Both the position numbers and the translations under genes were made by a program. 64,000 nucleotides of DNA from Shigella phage ESh21, in the sequence record ON528731. One strand, given 5' to 3'. Shown here one piece after another: positions 1,257 to 44,685 of this stretch. A model generated the notes under the pieces. It had not been told where the DNA came from, ran no database searches, and saw only the letters and a list, made by a program, of their open reading frames with translations. Position 1 is the first letter of the stretch; each line of letters opens with the position of its first letter.

Positions 1257-1269
1257 GTATGGAGGTACA

Positions 1270-2310
1270 ATGAATCAGTATACACTTACAAAGCTCCCAG
1301 AAAGCGTTACACACGTCTTCATTGACGCAGACAGCATTGCTTACAAGGGTGCTTGTGTAGTTGAAAAAGCAAAGTACAAGTATGTGAATAAACTTACCGC
1401 TGAAGAGTCTGATGACTTTGATAGTGCTAAGTTATCTTCACAATGGTTAGCTGACCAGAGAGTTCTTACAGAGGAACTTGGACTTGACTTTGATGAAGAT
1501 GAATGGGAAAGACAGACTTGGAAGGAAGCCAAGAGTGAAAAAGAAGCTATTATGGCGACTCAGCAGGTTCTTCAAGAATGGCTTAAAGTTGTCGGTAAAG
1601 AGCGTCAATGGATGGGTTACCTGACTGAGAAGGGTGTTCACAAACACAAAGACATTAAAGGTCTTGAACATCAATACCAAGGTAACAGGAAAGATGCGGT
1701 GACACCTACGCACCTAGTTGCTTGTCGTGAGTATCTTCTGTCACGACCTGAGTTTAAGCTTCTCAAAGGTGGCTTTGAAGCTGACTCAATCGTTATTGCA
1801 AAAGCTGAAAAGATGGGTAAAAAAGCTGCTCTTATGAGTATTGATAAAGACCTTCGTCAAGCTGAAGGTACATATTGTATTGATATGACTTATGAGAAAG
1901 CACCACTTATCTTTATTGCTGATAATAACGTTGGAGAGATTTGGGATTGCCCTATCAAATCCAAACCAAAAGCTAAGAAGACAGTCGGAGTAGGCTTCAA
2001 ATTCCTCTGCTATCAAGCTGTAGCAGGTGATAATGCAGATAACTACTTTGGCCTTAAGGGTGCTGGTAAAGTTGCTGTAATGAACGCTCTGGAAGGTAAA
2101 ACAACCTACAGAGAATGTTTAGATGCTGTTTATGAGTTGTATGCAAAGAAAGACTCTTACACCTATGTGTCGTGGGACGGTCAAACAATTACCAGAACAC
2201 CTTTAGAGTTAATGCACCAGCACTTCTGGATTGCATACCAAGAGCGAAATCCAAAGGATGATTTCACGTTTGAAAAATATGGATGGGAGCCTACTATGAA
2301 TGAAGATTAA
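1270..2310 (+). CDS. rnh: RNase H / 5'-3' exonuclease (FEN family, T4 rnh-like)
   Basis: N-terminal HVFIDADSIAYKGA, central SIDKDLRQAEG, C-terminal GDNADNYFGLKGAGKVAV H3TH-like motif; pattern matches T4 RNase H (memory-based comparison). Confidence 0.65.
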   Translation: MNQYTLTKLPESVTHVFIDADSIAYKGACVVEKAKYKYVNKLTAEESDDFDSAKLSSQWLADQRVLTEELGLDFDEDEWERQTWKEAKSEKEAIMATQQVLQEWLKVVGKERQWMGYLTEKGVHKHKDIKGLEHQYQGNRKDAVTPTHLVACREYLLSRPEFKLLKGGFEADSIVIAKAEKMGKKAALMSIDKDLRQAEGTYCIDMTYEKAPLIFIADNNVGEIWDCPIKSKPKAKKTVGVGFKFLCYQAVAGDNADNYFGLKGAGKVAVMNALEGKTTYRECLDAVYELYAKKDSYTYVSWDGQTITRTPLELMHQHFWIAYQERNPKDDFTFEKYGWEPTMNED

Positions 2311-20852: not shown

Positions 20853-20880
20853 AGGGCTGCTTCGGCAGCCTTTTTTATTT
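20853..20880 (+). terminator. rho-independent terminator
   Basis: GGGCTGC-TTCG-GCAGCC + TTTTTTATTT. Confidence 0.7.
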
Positions 20881-20906
20881 GAAAAATGTGCAGGATGGTG
20901 TATAAT
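20879..20906 (+). promoter_or_regulatory. sigma70-type promoter
   Basis: TTGAAA - 16 nt - TATAAT upstream of 20914 gene. Confidence 0.5.
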
Positions 20907-20913
20907 TGTCTGC

Positions 20914-21486
20914 ATGTTTAACAAAATAGGAGACCCAATGAAGAAATTCATTTTAGGTTTGTGCTTATTATTAACAGCACATGTTGCTACAGCGTCAGAT
21001 TGTCCAGAACTAACAATTAGCCAGAAAGTTAACATGTTAAAGGCTTACAATTATGGCGAGAAAGAGATGGGACAAGGTTGGGGAATCCCATTAGCAGCTA
21101 TAGCCTTACAAGAGTCACAATTAGGTGTCAAGGTTGTTAATAAAAAGACTCACGATTATGGAGTGTTCCAGAATCATTTGAAGACTGTTGTAAAGCGTAA
21201 CAAGATTTCACCTAACGTTGCAAAGAGAAAGCTTATCAGTGATTTCCATTACTCAGCTAAAGAGGCTCACAAGGAACTTCTTTTCTGGACAAATGTACAT
21301 GGTCACCCAAATGGAAAGTATTCTATGAAGCGTGTCTTAGCATCTTATAATGCTGGTTACAAATATAAGATTCCAAAGGCTAGACAATACTCTCAAGACG
21401 TGTACAATAACATGCAACTGCTTGCTCAATGTGAGTTTGCAACAAACATTAAAAAGGTAAAATATGAGCGAATCAAAACAATTTGA
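20914..21486 (+). CDS. secreted protein with lytic transglycosylase (SLT)-like motif
   Basis: N-terminal signal peptide MKKFILGLCLLLTAHVATA; ALQESQLG...DYGVFQN resembles the SLT catalytic E-S ... GLMQ region. Confidence 0.4.
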   Translation: MFNKIGDPMKKFILGLCLLLTAHVATASDCPELTISQKVNMLKAYNYGEKEMGQGWGIPLAAIALQESQLGVKVVNKKTHDYGVFQNHLKTVVKRNKISPNVAKRKLISDFHYSAKEAHKELLFWTNVHGHPNGKYSMKRVLASYNAGYKYKIPKARQYSQDVYNNMQLLAQCEFATNIKKVKYERIKTI

Positions 21487-22159
21487 TAAGGTGCTGTGTC
21501 ATGCTTATGATATCAAACCTTTGGATTTAGATATCAGTTCTGCAAGCTGGTCAGAAACTGTTAAAGCTGACTTTGCAGATACAGCAAGATATGTTGTGTG
21601 TCGTTTTGAAGATTTTCACTCAACGATGACAAAGATTCCTTGTCAAGATTTGCTAACTGGTAAGACTGTGTATGTAAATCGTAACAGCCTCATCTTAGTT
21701 GCAAAAGACTTAGAAGCAAAACGTAAAATGGTTCTGGCAGATATTGACGGAGTTCTTACAAGCTTTGACAAAAGTCTTAATGCAACCTTGTTAGATGATG
21801 GTACTTACTCACAGTACACAAACTTGGTAGACTCTCACAGGGCTAAACCAACTTATGTTTTTAACATCCTATGTGGAATCTCACAGAATGCTGATATAGG
21901 ATTCTTAACTGCTCGTGGTGAATCACAAAGAGTGGTTACACATCTCTTCCTGAATGAGAACACAGACAGTGACTTCCTACTATTTATGCGTGGATTCGGT
22001 GACAATGAGATTAGTGCAGAAAGTTTGAAAGTTCGTATGCTTCAGTCTTGCATTCTACCTTACTATGATGTAGTATGCTTTATAGAAGATACAGTAAAGA
22101 ACGTGGCAAAGGTCGAAAGAATCCTTCCACACATTAAAACAATGTTAGTTAAAAACTGA
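21464..22159 (+). CDS. hypothetical protein with HAD-like DxDG motif
   Basis: VLADIDGVLTSFD resembles HAD phosphatase motif I. Confidence 0.4.
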   Translation: MSESKQFDKVLCHAYDIKPLDLDISSASWSETVKADFADTARYVVCRFEDFHSTMTKIPCQDLLTGKTVYVNRNSLILVAKDLEAKRKMVLADIDGVLTSFDKSLNATLLDDGTYSQYTNLVDSHRAKPTYVFNILCGISQNADIGFLTARGESQRVVTHLFLNENTDSDFLLFMRGFGDNEISAESLKVRMLQSCILPYYDVVCFIEDTVKNVAKVERILPHIKTMLVKN

Positions 22160-22170
22160 GAGATAAAACC

Positions 22171-22635
22171 ATGCAAAATATTATCACAGTAGCTATCGAT
22201 GCAACCGGAAACAAATCTGAAGTTGTTCGTCGTATCATCAAAGACAACTTTGAAGGTAAAATCTTCCGAGCAGTAAACGTCAAAGCTGACGGAGAAATTC
22301 GTGAGTATCGTGCTCTGCTGAATGTTTCTAAACACGTTAAAGGTGTTGGTTCTACAACTGCCCACAAAGAAAATCTGATGACCATCTATGATATGGGTAT
22401 GGCTTCAGAACTTGGTGCAGCAGGGATTGTAAAACAGGGAGCACCATACCGTTCCTTCAATCTGGAAACTGCTCTTATGCTTTCCTTCACAAGTGGTGAA
22501 AAGACTACCACTTATCTGTTTACTGATGCTGCAACGGTATCAGCTATCAAGGACAGCACCATTAAAGCTGGGGTTAACGCTGCTGCTAAAGCCTCAACAA
22601 TGGCTGCAAATGTGCTTGCTAAAGTTCTAGGTTAA
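22171..22635 (+). CDS. hypothetical protein
   Basis: 154-aa ORF with GAGA RBS. Confidence 0.5.
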   Translation: MQNIITVAIDATGNKSEVVRRIIKDNFEGKIFRAVNVKADGEIREYRALLNVSKHVKGVGSTTAHKENLMTIYDMGMASELGAAGIVKQGAPYRSFNLETALMLSFTSGEKTTTYLFTDAATVSAIKDSTIKAGVNAAAKASTMAANVLAKVLG

Positions 22636-22645
22636 GGTTAATATA

Positions 22646-22669
22646 GAGGCTCCTTCGGGAGCCTTTTTC
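22646..22669 (+). terminator. rho-independent terminator
   Basis: GAGGCTCC-TTCG-GGAGCC + TTTTT. Confidence 0.7.
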
Positions 22670-22687
22670 ATTTCTAGGAGAAGTTAA

Positions 22688-23035
22688 ATGACATTTAAAG
22701 AATTTTGTCAAGCTGCTTTTGTAATCATGTTTCTGTTAGGTGTTGGTGCTTGGGGAGGTTATACTTACAAGACCAGCCAAGTTAACGAGAAAGAGTTGAC
22801 TAATCAGAGATTGGTTAGTGTTGCTAAGGATGCTTACCAAGAAGGTTTAGCAAACCTTAGCGCTAATTACAAAAACGATTTGAAAGATGTGCTTGCTAAA
22901 AACAAACACACAAAAGAGGTATTAACTTATGAAAAAACTAAGACAGAGTTTCTTAATATTTGTGCTACTGAGTCTTATGTCAGGGTGTTCAATGAACAAG
23001 GTGAACAGTACCTTCAAAAACTCCCAAGTAAGTGA
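22688..23035 (+). CDS. i-spanin-like protein (N-terminal TM, coiled-coil)
   Basis: 115 aa; TM helix FVIMFLLGVGAWGGY then charged helical region; 3' part overlapped out of frame by a lipoprotein ORF. Confidence 0.4.
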   Translation: MTFKEFCQAAFVIMFLLGVGAWGGYTYKTSQVNEKELTNQRLVSVAKDAYQEGLANLSANYKNDLKDVLAKNKHTKEVLTYEKTKTEFLNICATESYVRVFNEQGEQYLQKLPSK

Positions 23036-23198
23036 GAGTGACAAGTACACTCAGGAAGAAACTAGGTACACTGTCAAAGGTACTAAGGGTGAAGACCTTG
23101 CTAGTGCTATGGAGTTTTATCGTGATGGATTCTATGAATGTGCTATCAAGGCAAACAATTTGATTGATATGATTTTGTTAGGGAATAAGCAGCAATGA
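22929..23198 (+). CDS. o-spanin-like lipoprotein
   Basis: 89 aa; signal peptide with lipobox-like LSLMSGC; starts inside 22688..23035 in another frame (Rz/Rz1-like arrangement). Confidence 0.4.
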   Translation: MKKLRQSFLIFVLLSLMSGCSMNKVNSTFKNSQVSESDKYTQEETRYTVKGTKGEDLASAMEFYRDGFYECAIKANNLIDMILLGNKQQ

Positions 23199-23464
23199 CA
23201 GAGAAGAATGAAACGTTCTATGTAGAAGGTTATCTACTACTCCCAAGACCAAGCAACACTTACATGAGAATTGACTTCTTACCAACAATCATGGATGATA
23301 TCATGTGTCACCTATTCATACAGGGAATCACGGCACAGTTAAAACATGTTGGAAGAGAATGTAAGATTCGTGTTGACAACCATCCTGAAATCAAAGAGAA
23401 TCACTATATCTGGTTCGGTGAAGATTCCAAAGAAATCTACGCAACGTTAAAAACGAGGGAATGA
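23195..23464 (+). CDS. hypothetical protein
   Basis: 89-aa ORF, ATGA coupling. Confidence 0.4.
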   Translation: MTEKNETFYVEGYLLLPRPSNTYMRIDFLPTIMDDIMCHLFIQGITAQLKHVGRECKIRVDNHPEIKENHYIWFGEDSKEIYATLKTRE

Positions 23465-23631
23465 TTGTGGACAAACAGAAGCTTCTTAACTTGATTGAAG
23501 AGTATGGTGATACCCGTTTTAATATTGGTATTGCACAGGTTAAAGATTCAATTGAAAACTCTACCTTATGGGAAGAAGCTTCAGAAGCAATCTTACAACA
23601 AATTAAAGAGGTAATCTCTAATGGAACTTAA
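23461..23631 (+). CDS. small hypothetical protein (56 aa)
   Basis: ATGA overlap with upstream stop, fills gap 23464-23621; below ORF-track cutoff. Confidence 0.3.
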   Translation: MIVDKQKLLNLIEEYGDTRFNIGIAQVKDSIENSTLWEEASEAILQQIKEVISNGT

Positions 23632-23947
23632 TGGTAAAACCATTGTAGCCGTATTCTCAGATAATGAGAAAGATATTGGTGTAGCCCAAGTGACATATGG
23701 CAATGGTGAGTTTCTATATGGTGTAATCGCCATGATTGGTACAAGAGGTGATACCCCAACATTCCAAGATTGTGTACATAAGCTTGAAGAGTCTGTTAGA
23801 AATCATTGGTGTCTCGTTTGGATGAACGATAATGATATCAAAGAGCGTTACGCTAAAATTGGTATTGACATTGTTGGAATTGAACATGTAGACTTGTATC
23901 AACTAACTGAAAAGGTGATGTATGAAAGCAATAATCACACGCTGTAA
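23621..23947 (+). CDS. hypothetical protein
   Basis: 108-aa ORF. Confidence 0.45.
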   Translation: MELNGKTIVAVFSDNEKDIGVAQVTYGNGEFLYGVIAMIGTRGDTPTFQDCVHKLEESVRNHWCLVWMNDNDIKERYAKIGIDIVGIEHVDLYQLTEKVMYESNNHTL

Positions 23948-24176
23948 GAAGACTAGAAAAGCACTTGGTGGTGCAATCTTTGTAGGTCGCCGAGAAGTAA
24001 TTCCATTTAGCGCAAAGATTTGTGAAGGTTCTGTGTTAGGGCATAGACATTTCAAAGATGGTGATTTCAAACATTACGTAGGCAAGTACCTGAGTGAGTC
24101 ATTGGGAGAGTACAAACAACGCCAATATAAAACTCACAATGATGTTTTCTTCCAAGAGGTAATTTCAAATGGCTGA
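23922..24176 (+). CDS. hypothetical protein
   Basis: 84-aa ORF. Confidence 0.4.
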   Translation: MKAIITRCKKTRKALGGAIFVGRREVIPFSAKICEGSVLGHRHFKDGDFKHYVGKYLSESLGEYKQRQYKTHNDVFFQEVISNG

Positions 24177-24370: not shown

Positions 24371-25165
24371 ATGGGCATTGTAAAAATCATTAAAGGTGAT
24401 ATCTTTGAAGCCTTTGATAACCAGAAGTTTGATATCATTGGTCACGGATGCAACTGCATGAACTTGATGGGTGCAGGTATTGCAGCAACAATCTCAAAAC
24501 GCTACCCAAAAGCTTATGAGACTGACGCTGAAGTTTATGAGACAGTTGGTGGTGAGAACCATAAACCTGTACATCTTATGCTTGGCAATATCTCTGTAGC
24601 ACGTTTCAAGCAGGGTCGAATTGCTAACCTATACACTCAGGTTATCACTGGTAAAGATGCACGTTACAATGCCTTAGAAGCAGCTTTGCAGCGTCTTAAC
24701 AACTACTGCAAAGTAAACCAGCTTAAGAAGGTTGGTCTTCCAATGATTTGTGCAGGGATTGGTGGTCTGGATATCTTTGCAGTTACTTCAATCATTAACC
24801 AGACAATGAAAGATGTAGACGTTTACCTTTATGTCTATGAAGAAACAATGCACAGACGACTAACCAATAACATAGTTGGTTGGAACAACTACAGTGAACC
24901 TCAACACTTTGATGGTGTCGCAGTTGTGAAGGATAATCAAGTTACACTACGGGTAAAACGGAAGGGTAAGGTGCATAAAAGTAACCCTCCGGTTGAGAAG
25001 TACTCTCTGAGTAACGCTCAAGTTACCCACCCGTTACATGACCACTGTTTGAGAGCAGTAACATTTGGTGACAATGCAAGTGTTTACCTTCTTGCACAAG
25101 ACCATGAAGAAGCTGATAAGATTATCTCTGATAAACGTTTTAGCTTTGTTGAAGCACGTAACTAA
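24371..25165 (+). CDS. macro domain protein (ADP-ribose binding/hydrolase-like)
   Basis: IKGDIFE...DIIGHGCNCMNLMGAGIAATISKRYP and GLPMICAGIGGLD follow the macro-domain GD(I/V)T, N-x6-GGGV, G-x-P-x-I-S-x-G pattern (compared from memory with E. coli YmdB). Confidence 0.55.
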   Translation: MGIVKIIKGDIFEAFDNQKFDIIGHGCNCMNLMGAGIAATISKRYPKAYETDAEVYETVGGENHKPVHLMLGNISVARFKQGRIANLYTQVITGKDARYNALEAALQRLNNYCKVNQLKKVGLPMICAGIGGLDIFAVTSIINQTMKDVDVYLYVYEETMHRRLTNNIVGWNNYSEPQHFDGVAVVKDNQVTLRVKRKGKVHKSNPPVEKYSLSNAQVTHPLHDHCLRAVTFGDNASVYLLAQDHEEADKIISDKRFSFVEARN

Positions 25166-38875: not shown

Positions 38876-39340
38876 TTACTTTGGATATACCGCGTCAAGA
38901 TAAATCTTCGCTTCCATTCTACGTCTGTTTGTCAGACCTTTAGAAGCAACTTTCTTACCGTTGATGGTTACCTTATTCCACCACTGCATAGCTTCTGCAC
39001 AGCCAACTTTGTTACCAGCATTGTGACGCCTCATGAAGGTTGATTCCTTCATAGCCCCAATACCGATGTTGTAGGTTTCAATAACCAGTGCGTCAAATTC
39101 ATTCTGGGTAGTTGGAGCACTGATAGCTTTGTTCACAGCTACTACAAACTTCTCAACATCAGCAAGTAGATAACTGTTAGCTTGGGCTTCATTGATTTTC
39201 ATACCCATCTTGACAGGTTGACCATTGATACGGATTGTACCATAACCAATTGTAGGAATACCAGCAGAGTCTTTGTAGGCTTCTAAACGAAGCCCCTCAA
39301 AGAACTTGATAGCTTCCAATCCTTGAGGGGATAATTGCAT
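38876..39340 (-). CDS. endolysin (phage lysozyme, GH24-like)
   Basis: GLEAIKFFEGLRLEAYKDSAGIPTIGYG matches the lysozyme E...D...T catalytic region. Confidence 0.8.
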   Translation of the reverse strand: MQLSPQGLEAIKFFEGLRLEAYKDSAGIPTIGYGTIRINGQPVKMGMKINEAQANSYLLADVEKFVVAVNKAISAPTTQNEFDALVIETYNIGIGAMKESTFMRRHNAGNKVGCAEAMQWWNKVTINGKKVASKGLTNRRRMEAKIYLDAVYPK

Positions 39341-43878: not shown

Positions 43879-43955
43879 CTCTGTTTAGCTCAGCTTGGTA
43901 GAGCGTTCCGTTTGGGGCGGTAAGGCCAGAGGTTCAAGTCCTCTAACAGAGACCA
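43879..43955 (+). tRNA. tRNA-Pro (anticodon TGG)
   Basis: manual cloverleaf: acceptor CTCTGTT/AACAGAG, T-loop TTCAAGT, CCA encoded. Confidence 0.7.
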
Positions 43956-43962
43956 AATTAAT

Positions 43963-44037
43963 GTCGTAGAAGGCAAATGGTTAGCCACCTGACCTTCAAT
44001 CAGTTGCTCGCGGGTTCGAATCCCGTCTACGACTCCA
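43963..44037 (+). tRNA. tRNA, anticodon probably TTC (Glu), tentative
   Basis: acceptor GTCGTAG/CTACGAC, T-arm GCGGG-TTCGAAT-CCCGT, CCA encoded; anticodon loop CCTTCAA has C at position 33. Confidence 0.55.
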
Positions 44038-44122
44038 AATTTGACAGAAGACCAAATACAGCAAACAACTTTTACTTTTCGCGCATAGAAAACATAAAAA
44101 GCTTGGTCTGGTCATTAAGAAT
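44038..44122 (+). repeat. structured inter-tRNA spacer element (family CAGAAGACC...GGTCTGG), copy 1
   Basis: begins right after CCA; conserved ends shared with copies at 44200, 44604, 44685. Confidence 0.6.
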
Positions 44123-44199
44123 CGCGGGTATAGAGAAAGGGCGTCTCACATGTCTCATTAGCATGGCAACGGTTGGTTCGACTCCAACACCCGCCTCCA
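44123..44199 (+). tRNA. tRNA with anticodon CAT (Met or Ile2 or fMet)
   Basis: anticodon arm CATGT-CTCATTA-GCATG, T-loop TTCGACT, CCA encoded; C1-C72 mismatch. Confidence 0.6.
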
Positions 44200-44282
44200 A
44201 ATTTACAGAAGACCGTTTACAGCAATTTAAAAACAATTTTATCGGAAAATTAAAATGAATACGGTCTGGTAATGTTAAACAT
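44200..44282 (+). repeat. structured inter-tRNA spacer element, copy 2
   Basis: AAATTTACAGAAGACCGTTTACAGCAATTTAAA...ACGGTCTGGTAAT. Confidence 0.6.
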
Positions 44283-44359
44283 GGTTAGGAAGCACATAAG
44301 GCATGTGCGGTCGGCTGTTAACCGAATGGCACAGGGTTCGAATCCCTGACTAACCGCCA
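44283..44359 (+). tRNA. tRNA-Asn (anticodon GTT)
   Basis: D-arm GCAC/GTGC, anticodon loop CTGTTAA, T-arm CAGGG-TTCGAAT-CCCTG, CCA encoded. Confidence 0.7.
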
Positions 44360-44369
44360 AAATTTAAAT

Positions 44370-44457
44370 GCGTCGTTATCCCGTAGATGGAAGCGGTGGC
44401 GACTGTAAATCGCTTGTCATTACGACTCGGTAGGTTCGACTCCTTCACGGCGCACCA
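44370..44457 (+). tRNA. tRNA-Tyr (anticodon GTA), long variable arm
   Basis: 88 nt; anticodon arm GGCGA-CTGTAAA-TCGCT; variable stem GTC/GAC; resembles E. coli tRNA-Tyr layout. Confidence 0.6.
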
Positions 44458-44463
44458 AATAAA

Positions 44464-44541
44464 GGTTATGTAGTTTAATCTGGTTAAAATACCTCCCTGT
44501 CACGGAGGAAGATGTGGGTTCGAGTCCCATCGTAACCGCCA
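44464..44541 (+). tRNA. tRNA-Asp (anticodon GTC)
   Basis: anticodon arm CCTCC-CTGTCAC-GGAGG, T-loop TTCGAGT, CCA encoded. Confidence 0.7.
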
Positions 44542-44603
44542 ATTTTGAGAAGGGCTTTTTTAGCCCCTCCCTTAAAGAGTTCTTGTGAGTATTCTTTAAA
44601 GGA

Positions 44604-44685
44604 GCAGAAGACCAAATTCAGCAAGCAACAAAAATATTTCAAGCCAATTAATTTGAAAAATTTAAAACTTGGTCTGGTTCCAACA
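44604..44685 (+). repeat. structured inter-tRNA spacer element, copy 3
   Basis: GCAGAAGACCAAATTCAGCAAGC...CTTGGTCTGGTTCC. Confidence 0.6.

What the first reader, a model, noticed from the sequence alone, without database searches (positions are those of the whole stretch)
22688..23198. Overlapping out-of-frame gene pair resembling an Rz/Rz1-type spanin, far from the endolysin
A type-II membrane protein with a coiled-coil periplasmic region (22688..23035) is overlapped in another frame by an ORF starting with a lipoprotein-like signal (LSLMSGC). This is the embedded/overlapped i-spanin/o-spanin layout, but it lies 16 kb away and on the opposite strand from the endolysin at 38876, and the putative o-spanin is longer than usual.
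Basis: inference. Interest (0 to 1): 0.45.

Follow-up and report, generated by a model that had tools for sequence, protein, structure and literature searches.

The report
Known Felix O1-type overlapped spanin genes
This is the ordinary, already catalogued two-gene "spanin" pair that Felix O1-like phages use to break the host outer membrane at lysis; its distance from the endolysin is normal for this phage group.

Summary
ORF A (22688..23035, 115 aa, N-terminal membrane anchor) and ORF B (22929..23198, 89 aa, lipoprotein signal LMSG|C) overlap by 107 nt in the +1 frame.

- **Source:** the window is Shigella phage ESh22 (Ounavirinae, Mooglevirus).
- **Prior annotation:** the same two genes are annotated i-spanin and o-spanin in Citrobacter phages Moogle and Mijalis (96.6% nt identity). 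Kongari et al. 2018 list them in the "JH2/Felix O1" overlapped spanin families with the same 107-nt overlap.
- **Distance from the endolysin:** the Moogle paper says the lysis genes of Felix O1-like phages are scattered, so the 15.7 kb and the opposite strand are expected.
- **Both frames are coding:** in 27 distinct relatives, wobble-site diversity is 0.23 in the i-only part and 0.33 in the o-only part. It is about 0.05-0.07 at every codon position in the overlap.
- **Conserved features:** the membrane anchor, the lipobox Cys with Ser at +2, and one periplasmic Cys per protein are kept in all eight aligned loci, down to 28-35% o-spanin identity. In Proteus phage RS10pmA the pair sits in a holin-endolysin-spanin cassette.
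- **Length:** 89 aa is long only next to lambda Rz1.
- **Limit:** function is inferred. I found no experiment on this family.

Already known; low interest.

The parts
22645..22666 (+). Intrinsic-terminator-like hairpin (9 bp stem, GC-rich, T tail) between the upstream gene (stop at 22635) and the i-spanin start
   Evidence: The same position is annotated 'terminator' in Mijalis.
22676..22680 (+). Shine-Dalgarno AGGAG, 7 nt upstream of the i-spanin ATG
   Evidence: Sequence read. An RBS is annotated at the equivalent site in Mijalis. Kongari's supplement lists 'AGGAG' for Moogle.
22688..23035 (+). i-spanin gene (115 aa): N-terminal transmembrane anchor of about residues 6-24, a predicted helical periplasmic domain, and a conserved periplasmic Cys92 (codon 22961..22963)
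   Evidence: phrog_1152 'Rz-like spanin', E=4.8e-36. 93% identical to the Mijalis/Moogle i-spanin. tblastn finds it in 278 phage records.
22916..22919 (+). Shine-Dalgarno GAGG inside the i-spanin gene, 9 nt upstream of the o-spanin ATG
   Evidence: An RBS is annotated at the equivalent site in Mijalis.
22929..23198 (+). o-spanin gene (89 aa): signal peptide 1-19, lipobox LMSG|C with lipid-modified Cys20 (codon 22986..22988), Ser at +2, a linker of about 35 residues, a C-terminal helix at about 55-88 with conserved Cys71 (codon 23139..23141), and no prolines
   Evidence: phrog_4180, E=3.7e-48. 96.6% identical to the Mijalis o-spanin. tblastn finds it in 319 phage records. AlphaFold2 model.
22929..23035 (+). 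107-nt dual-coding overlap. i-spanin residues 81-115 and o-spanin residues 1-35 are read from the same DNA in two frames
   Evidence: nucleotide diversity is 0.048-0.066 at all three codon positions here, against 0.233 and 0.332 at wobble positions in the flanking single-coding parts. Of 30 variants in the overlap, none is synonymous in both frames. The 107-nt overlap is also listed for Moogle and Felix O1 in Kongari's supplement.
38876..39340 (-). Endolysin (soluble lysozyme type), the functional partner whose action on the cell wall is thought to let the spanins act; 15.7 kb away on the other strand
   Evidence: phrog_7 endolysin, E=2.1e-55. The Moogle orthologue is annotated 'endolysin, FelixO1-like, lysozyme', about 14.4 kb from its spanins and on the opposite strand.

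Best explanation
The two ORFs are the two subunits of a two-component spanin of the Felix O1/JH2 family, in the overlapped gene arrangement.

**Shown from sequence**
- ORF A is a type-II inner-membrane protein with a mainly helical periplasmic domain.
- ORF B has a signal peptidase II lipobox with Ser at +2, the pattern of a lipoprotein sent to the outer membrane.
- Each protein keeps one conserved periplasmic cysteine.
- Both reading frames are under purifying selection.

**Inferred from the lambda Rz/Rz1 and T4 PseT.3/PseT.2 paradigms**
- The C-terminal parts of the two proteins bind each other in the periplasm, forming a bridge from inner to outer membrane that threads the cell-wall meshwork.
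- Homotypic disulfide bonds through the conserved cysteines covalently link the subunits.
- The complexes accumulate harmlessly until the holin lets the endolysin (38876..39340) degrade the cell wall.
- The freed complexes then disrupt the outer membrane, probably by fusing it with the inner membrane. This is the last step of lysis.

Because the spanin is held in check physically by the cell wall, its genes do not need to be next to, or co-transcribed with, the endolysin gene.
For: **Identity with annotated spanins**
- The window is 100% identical to phage ESh22 and 96.6% (nt) to Moogle and Mijalis, where the same CDS are annotated i-spanin and o-spanin.
- Kongari et al. 2018 place Moogle and Felix01 in the JH2 i-spanin and o-spanin families, overlapped class, with a 107-nt overlap.
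- ORF A hits phrog_1152 'Rz-like spanin' at E=4.8e-36.

**Defining sequence features**
- Membrane anchor, lipobox, Ser at +2 and ribosome-binding sites are all present.

**Conservation**
- The o-spanin is found in 319 phage records and the i-spanin in 278.
- Eight loci were aligned, from Mooglevirus, Felixounavirus, Suspvirus, Kolesnikvirus, a Gordonclarkvirinae podophage and a Proteus Gorganvirus. All keep a +1 overlap of 107-137 nt, the anchor, the lipobox Cys with Ser at +2, and one invariant periplasmic Cys in each protein.

**Dual-coding signature**
- Shown across 27 distinct sequences.

**Lysis context elsewhere**
- In Proteus phage RS10pmA the homologous pair follows a holin (phrog_198, E=4.4e-23) and an endolysin (phrog_465, E=9.2e-51) directly.

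**Scattered lysis genes are the published norm**
- Stated for Felix O1-like phages in PMC4319497.
Against: - No experiment on this spanin family was found in the papers searched. [quoted passage not shown]
- There is no detectable sequence similarity to lambda Rz/Rz1 (no Pfam hit) or to T4 PseT.3/PseT.2.
- The o-spanin has no prolines, so it lacks the proline-rich region that is essential in Rz1.
- PHROGs label the o-spanin families 4180 and 2425 'unknown function'.
- The pair sits in an early-looking gene block (rIIA, rIIB, polynucleotide kinase), directly behind a terminator and with no promoter-like site in between. When and how it is expressed is not known.
- The i-spanin structure model has low confidence.
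Confidence: 0.9

Rival explanations
1. The pair is an envelope system with a non-lysis role. For example, it could be an early-expressed outer-membrane lipoprotein plus inner-membrane protein that blocks superinfection or masks a receptor, as the T5 Llp and TP-J34 Ltp lipoproteins do.
For: - It lies in an early-type gene block next to rIIA/rIIB, far from the endolysin.
- The o-spanin PHROG families are labelled 'unknown function'.
- There is a non-significant PDB match (E=0.54) to 4eqq, 'putative host cell surface-exposed lipoprotein'.
Against: - Homologues of both proteins sit in a holin-endolysin-i-spanin-o-spanin cassette in Proteus phage RS10pmA.
- The overlapped architecture, the membrane anchor plus lipoprotein pairing and the conserved periplasmic cysteines are exactly the spanin criteria.
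- It is the only convincing lipoprotein ORF in the 64-kb window, so no other spanin candidate is seen there.
- T4 spanins are also encoded away from the holin and endolysin genes.
Confidence: 0.06
2. ORF B is a chance open frame inside and beyond a real gene. Only ORF A, and perhaps the 30-aa ORF called in the ESh22 record, is expressed.
For: - ESh22's own GenBank annotation does not call the 89-aa ORF.
- Lipobox-like ORFs occur by chance at about 0.8 per shuffled window.
Against: - ORF B is intact in 27 of 27 distinct relatives.
- In its non-overlapped part, variation is concentrated at ORF B's own third codon positions: 46 of 54 sites vary, against 8-15 of 53 at the other two positions.
- It is recognisable at 28-35% identity, with the lipobox kept, in other phage subfamilies.
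- It has its own ribosome-binding site.
- Kongari et al. note that gene callers routinely miss overlapped o-spanins.
Confidence: 0.01

Closest known systems
Felix O1 / JH2-family overlapped spanins (Citrobacter phage Moogle CPT_Moogle122/121; Felix O1 p014/p015), as catalogued by Kongari et al. 2018
   Same: - Orthologous: the i-spanin is 93% and the o-spanin 96.6% identical to Mijalis/Moogle.
- Same lengths (115 and 89 aa), same 107-nt +1 overlap, and same neighbours (rIIB, hypothetical, polynucleotide kinase, hypothetical, spanins).
- The endolysin lies about 14-16 kb away on the other strand in both.
   Different: Only point substitutions: 8 in the i-spanin and 3 in the o-spanin against Mijalis. 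The ESh22 GenBank record leaves the i-spanin as 'hypothetical' and miscalls the o-spanin.
Lambda Rz/Rz1
   Same: Same inferred job and topology: a type-II inner-membrane protein plus an outer-membrane lipoprotein, with the o-spanin gene in the +1 frame of the i-spanin gene and periplasmic cysteines in both.
   Different: - No sequence similarity (no Pfam hit at E<=0.1).
- Overlapped rather than fully embedded.
- Mature o-spanin is 70 aa against 40 aa (the Rz1 figure is from my own knowledge).
- No proline-rich region: 0 Pro.
- A predicted C-terminal helix instead of an unstructured chain.
- Not part of a lysis cassette.
T4 PseT.3/PseT.2
   Same: - Spanin genes lie far from the holin and endolysin genes and within one gene of a polynucleotide kinase gene.
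- Similar sizes: 117 and 99 aa in the RefSeq record.
- The o-spanin has no proline-rich region and has a predicted C-terminal helix.
   Different: - No BLASTP similarity.
- T4 genes are 'separated' rather than overlapped.
- The T4 i-spanin has no periplasmic Cys and its o-spanin has two. Here each protein has one.
- Gene order relative to the kinase is reversed.
- The kinase-like proteins are only marginally similar (E=0.065).

Membership tests
Two-component spanin (functional class; criteria of Summer et al. 2007 and Kongari et al. 2018) | i-spanin: small protein with a single N-terminal transmembrane domain and a mostly helical periplasmic domain | tested here: met
   Kyte-Doolittle maximum of 1.97 at residues 6-22. 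A membrane anchor is present in all 8 aligned homologues. The AlphaFold2 model is all-helical but of low confidence. Kongari's table gives 66% helix for the Moogle orthologue.
Two-component spanin (functional class) | o-spanin: signal peptidase II lipobox, with a residue at +2 compatible with outer-membrane sorting (not Asp) | tested here: met
   PS51257-type match IFVLLSLMSG|C with Cys20 and Ser at +2. The lipobox Cys followed by Ser is invariant in 8 loci from 6 phage genera. LipoP itself was not available.
Two-component spanin (functional class) | o-spanin gene embedded in, overlapping or directly following the i-spanin gene on the same strand | tested here: met
   107-nt overlap in the +1 frame. 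Overlaps of 107-137 nt are conserved in relatives. Dual-coding constraint is shown.
Two-component spanin (functional class) | At least one periplasmic cysteine available for homotypic intermolecular disulfide bonds | tested here: met
   i-spanin Cys92 and o-spanin Cys71 are invariant in the 8-locus alignment. Disulfide formation itself was not tested.
Two-component spanin (functional class) | The two proteins form a complex, and the pair is required for outer-membrane disruption (complements lambda Rz/Rz1 amber mutants) | not testable with these tools
   Needs genetics and biochemistry. No such experiment on this family was found in the papers searched.
Two-component spanin (functional class) | Location in a lysis cassette (common, but not required) | tested here: not met
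   The endolysin is 15.7 kb away on the opposite strand. This is the stated norm for Felix O1-like phages and for T4. The homologous pair is in a cassette in Proteus phage RS10pmA.
Felix O1/JH2 i-spanin family (phrog_1152) | Significant full-length sequence similarity | tested here: met
   phrog_1152, E=4.8e-36, covering residues 1-115. 77-93% identity to Felix O1-type and Moogle-type proteins.
Felix O1/JH2 o-spanin family (phrog_4180; distant relatives in phrog_2425) | Significant full-length sequence similarity | tested here: met
   phrog_4180, E=3.7e-48; phrog_2425, E=1.7e-8. 78-97% identity in Ounavirinae and 28-35% in Kolesnikvirus, EP335 and RS10pmA.
Lambda Rz / Rz1 sequence families (Pfam) | Match to the Pfam Rz and Rz1 models; proline-rich region in the o-spanin | tested here: not met
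   No Pfam-A family at E<=0.1 for either protein. The o-spanin has 0 prolines. There is only a marginal hit to a second 'Rz-like spanin' PHROG (phrog_1327, E=0.001).
T4 PseT.3 / PseT.2 families | Sequence similarity to the T4 proteins | tested here: not met
   BLASTP finds no alignment at E<=100 for either pair.

The most novel reading that the evidence does not exclude
This proline-free o-spanin has a flexible linker of about 35 residues followed by a conserved amphipathic C-terminal helix, with the motif L-E-[FWY]-[YW]-x-D-x-[FY]-x-x-C-A-x-x-x-N-x-L-[IV]-[DE]. It might dock on the conserved Cys-containing C-terminal helix of the i-spanin and disrupt the outer membrane by a mechanism different from lambda's proline-rich Rz1. 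Its expression from an early-type gene block, directly behind a terminator, might reflect a separate timing control such as read-through or antitermination. This would be a mechanistic variant inside an already catalogued family, not a new system.
Probability: 0.15. Interest if true: 0.3.

Novelty: already known. Interest (0 to 1): 0.08.

Why it matters
It matters little beyond annotation.
- The GenBank record of this phage (ESh22) labels the i-spanin 'hypothetical' and misses the o-spanin. Both could be corrected by transfer from Moogle and Mijalis.
- This is another example of gene callers missing overlapped o-spanin genes, a problem Kongari et al. already described.
- The Felix O1-type spanin family has apparently not been tested experimentally. 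Its o-spanin differs in composition from lambda Rz1, so it could be a useful comparison for spanin mechanism studies.
- The locus itself raises no open question.

Tried and rejected
1. **Homology to T4 PseT.3/PseT.2.** The nearby polynucleotide kinase gene suggested it, but BLASTP found nothing. The kinase-like protein itself is only marginally similar to T4 PseT (E=0.065, phosphatase-domain motif only). Gene order relative to the kinase is also reversed. The resemblance is limited to 'scattered lysis genes'.
2. **Pfam scan of both proteins.** No family was found.
3. **Sequence search of solved structures.** Nothing significant for either protein.
4. **Single-sequence AlphaFold2.**
   - The o-spanin model is usable only for the C-terminal helix.
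   - The i-spanin model has low confidence.
   - No fold search was run because the models are too weak.
5. **Lipobox frequency as a significance test.** It is not decisive on its own: 3 observed against about 0.8 in shuffles. The conservation and dual-coding tests carry the argument.
6. **Promoter scan.** It found no sigma-70-like site between the terminator and the i-spanin start, so expression remains unexplained.
7. **Large protein searches.** The phage collection and IMG/VR already gave hundreds of homologues.
8. **First attempt to fetch the T4 region.** It used the wrong coordinates.

Full report
**What is there**

The ORF listing and the raw sequence show both ORFs at the reported coordinates.
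- ORF A is 22688..23035 (115 aa): MTFKEFCQAAFVIMFLLGVGAWGG...
- ORF B is 22929..23198 (89 aa): MKKLRQSFLIFVLLSLMSGCSMNK...
- They share 107 nt, with B in the +1 frame of A.
- A has an N-terminal hydrophobic segment: Kyte-Doolittle 17-residue maximum 1.97 at residues 6-22.
- B satisfies the PROSITE-type lipobox rule, with Cys20, three basic residues in the first seven, and Ser at +2. By established knowledge of lipoprotein sorting in Enterobacteria, a non-Asp +2 residue is compatible with transfer to the outer membrane.
- Each ORF has its own Shine-Dalgarno-like site: AGGAG at 22676..22680 and GAGG at 22916..22919.
- A terminator-like hairpin (22645..22666) lies just upstream of A.

**Where the window comes from**

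- Megablast of 22000..24000 gives 100% identity to Shigella phage ESh22 (ON528732.1; Ounavirinae, Mooglevirus).
- It gives 96.6% identity to Citrobacter phages Moogle and Mijalis.
- In Moogle and Mijalis the two CDS are annotated i-spanin and o-spanin, each with its RBS, and the upstream terminator is annotated too.
- In ESh22's own record ORF A is 'hypothetical protein'. ORF B is not called; a 30-aa ORF at window 23109..23198 stands in its place.

**Published status**

[quoted passage not shown] - The Mijalis paper (PMC5543628) speaks of 'an overlapping bimolecular spanin complex'.
- Kongari et al. 2018 (PMC6139136) place Moogle, Felix01, UAB_phi87, JH2 and others in the 'JH2' i-spanin family (15 members) and the 'JH2' o-spanin family (11 members), in the overlapped class.
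- Their supplementary tables give Moogle i-spanin 84600..84948 and o-spanin 84437..84707, with a 107-nt overlap. The same 107 nt is listed for Felix O1.
- The same paper notes that gene callers usually miss overlapped o-spanin genes. That is what happened in the ESh22 record.

**Is it more than chance?**

A lipobox-bearing ORF alone is weak evidence. The window has three in six frames, and mononucleotide shuffles give about 0.8. The other two have TTG starts and poor signal peptides. The decisive evidence is comparative.
- tblastn finds the o-spanin in 319 phage records and the i-spanin in 278. Many are annotated as spanins.
- In 27 distinct nucleotide sequences (the window plus IMG/VR loci), both ORFs are intact in every case.
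- Nucleotide diversity by codon position shows dual coding:
  - In the i-only part, variation peaks at frame-A third positions (pi 0.233; 59 of 79 sites variable).
  - In the o-only part, it peaks at frame-B third positions (pi 0.332; 46 of 54 sites variable).
  - In the overlap, all three positions are equally quiet (pi 0.048-0.066).
  - None of the 30 overlap variants is synonymous in both frames.
- Both frames are therefore under purifying selection.

**Conserved features across distant relatives**

Eight loci were compared: Mooglevirus, Felixounavirus, Suspvirus, two Kolesnikvirus phages of Erwinia, the podophage EP335 (Gordonclarkvirinae) and Proteus phage RS10pmA (Gorganvirus). All eight keep the following:
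- a +1 overlap of 107-137 nt;
- the i-spanin membrane anchor;
- the o-spanin lipobox Cys followed by Ser;
- one invariant periplasmic Cys in each protein (i-spanin Cys92 and o-spanin Cys71 in window numbering);
- a conserved o-spanin C-terminal motif (LEFYRDGFYECAIKANNLID and variants).

The conserved Cys-containing motif of the i-spanin is encoded by the same DNA as the o-spanin signal peptide.

In RS10pmA the pair follows a holin (phrog_198, E=4.4e-23) and an endolysin (phrog_465, E=9.2e-51) directly. That is a classical lysis cassette. It gives independent context support for a lysis role of the family.

**Structure**

- The single-sequence AlphaFold2 model of the o-spanin has mean pLDDT 65.8. 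It shows a signal-peptide helix, a disordered stretch (residues 26-48 below pLDDT 50) and a confident C-terminal helix at 55-88 (pLDDT 85-92 over residues 61-80).
- The i-spanin model is all-helical (H3-29, H39-71, H81-111) but of low confidence (47.8).
- A crude heptad score favours residues about 41-78 of the i-spanin.
- Kongari's table predicts a coiled coil at 52-79 for Moogle's protein but none for Felix O1's. The coiled-coil claim is plausible, not established.
- No solved structure is related by sequence.

**The two 'oddities'**

- The endolysin at 38876..39340 (minus strand) is confirmed (phrog_7, E=2.1e-55). It is 15.7 kb away.
- In Moogle the arrangement is the same: endolysin at 69546..70010 (+) and spanins at 84438..84948 (-).
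- T4 likewise encodes its spanins (pseT.3 and pseT.2) away from the t and e genes.
- In the accepted model, spanin complexes are restrained by the cell wall until the endolysin acts, so linkage is not needed. This is established knowledge from the lambda system, applied here by inference.
- The 89-aa length is unusual only next to lambda Rz1. Overlapped o-spanins in Kongari's table range from about 65 to 157 aa.

**Comparison with paradigms**

- The pair is not a sequence relative of lambda Rz/Rz1 (no Pfam hit) or of T4 PseT.3/PseT.2 (no BLASTP alignment).
- The o-spanin has no prolines, so it lacks the proline-rich region that is mutationally sensitive in Rz1.
- In this respect, and in having a predicted C-terminal helix, it resembles T4 PseT.2 more than Rz1.
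- It works like an Rz/Rz1 pair by inference. By membership it belongs to the Felix O1/JH2 families.

**Limits**

- Function rests on family criteria, curated annotation and context. I found no experiment on this family.
- How the pair is transcribed is unknown. It sits behind a terminator in an early-looking block of rIIA, rIIB, an SLT-like gene and a polynucleotide-kinase-like gene.

**Verdict**

The feature is already known and ordinary for this phage group. Interest is low.

Noticed in passing
window 20938..21486 (+) (the longest ORF starts at 20914): A 182-aa protein with a Sec-type signal peptide (MKKFILGLCLLLTAHVATA|SD) and the three motifs typical of SLT lytic transglycosylases (LQES, GVFQ, SYNAG). 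The Pfam SLT match is just under the cut-off (21.1 vs 21.3 bits, E=2.3e-4). phrog_600 is labelled 'unknown function'. It lies between rIIB and the polynucleotide-kinase-like gene, 1.2 kb upstream of the spanins, behind a strong sigma-70-like promoter match (20879..20906, 11 of 12). It is 'hypothetical' in Moogle and Mijalis. An exported cell-wall-cutting enzyme encoded in an early-type block is unexplained. No PDB relative was found by sequence.
   Followed up: partly
window 23109..23198 (+); ON528732.1 24830..24919: The GenBank record of the source phage (ESh22) calls a 30-aa ORF here instead of the 89-aa o-spanin, and labels the i-spanin 'hypothetical protein'. This is an annotation gap, not biology.
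   Followed up: yes
window 43879..48614 (+); L040 17253..21012: There is a block of 25 tRNA genes, all on the window's + strand. In Moogle's GenBank record (KM236239.1) the homologous tRNA genes are annotated on the + strand of the record. ARAGORN places them all on its - strand, which agrees with the window. The strand in that record therefore appears to be wrong. ARAGORN also reports a 749-nt permuted 'tmRNA*' spanning several tRNA genes in Moogle, but nothing of the kind in the window. It is probably a false positive.
   Followed up: partly
window 21464..22159 (+): The 'polynucleotide kinase' (phrog_3970, E=3.2e-124) aligns with T4 PseT only weakly, and only over the phosphatase (HAD-type DxDG) region: E=0.065, 231 aa against 301 aa. 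It may carry only the phosphatase-like part. Its annotation as a kinase looks untested.
   Followed up: partly
L007 (EP335) 1266..1761; L005/L006 (Erwinia Kolesnikvirus) 1281..1776; L008 (Proteus RS10pmA) 1320..1740: o-spanin homologues at 28-35% identity accompany the shared i-spanin family in Kolesnikvirus, Gordonclarkvirinae and Gorganvirus phages. Several of these records do not annotate the o-spanin ORF at all. Kongari's table lists 15 i-spanin but only 11 o-spanin members for the JH2 family. The o-spanin family may therefore be somewhat broader than listed there.
   Followed up: partly
window 24371..25165 (+): A 264-aa protein matching phrog_335 'phosphatase' (E=9.8e-96). Its Moogle orthologue is noted as 'contains Macro domain'. 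It lies a few genes downstream of the spanins and was not examined further.
   Followed up: no
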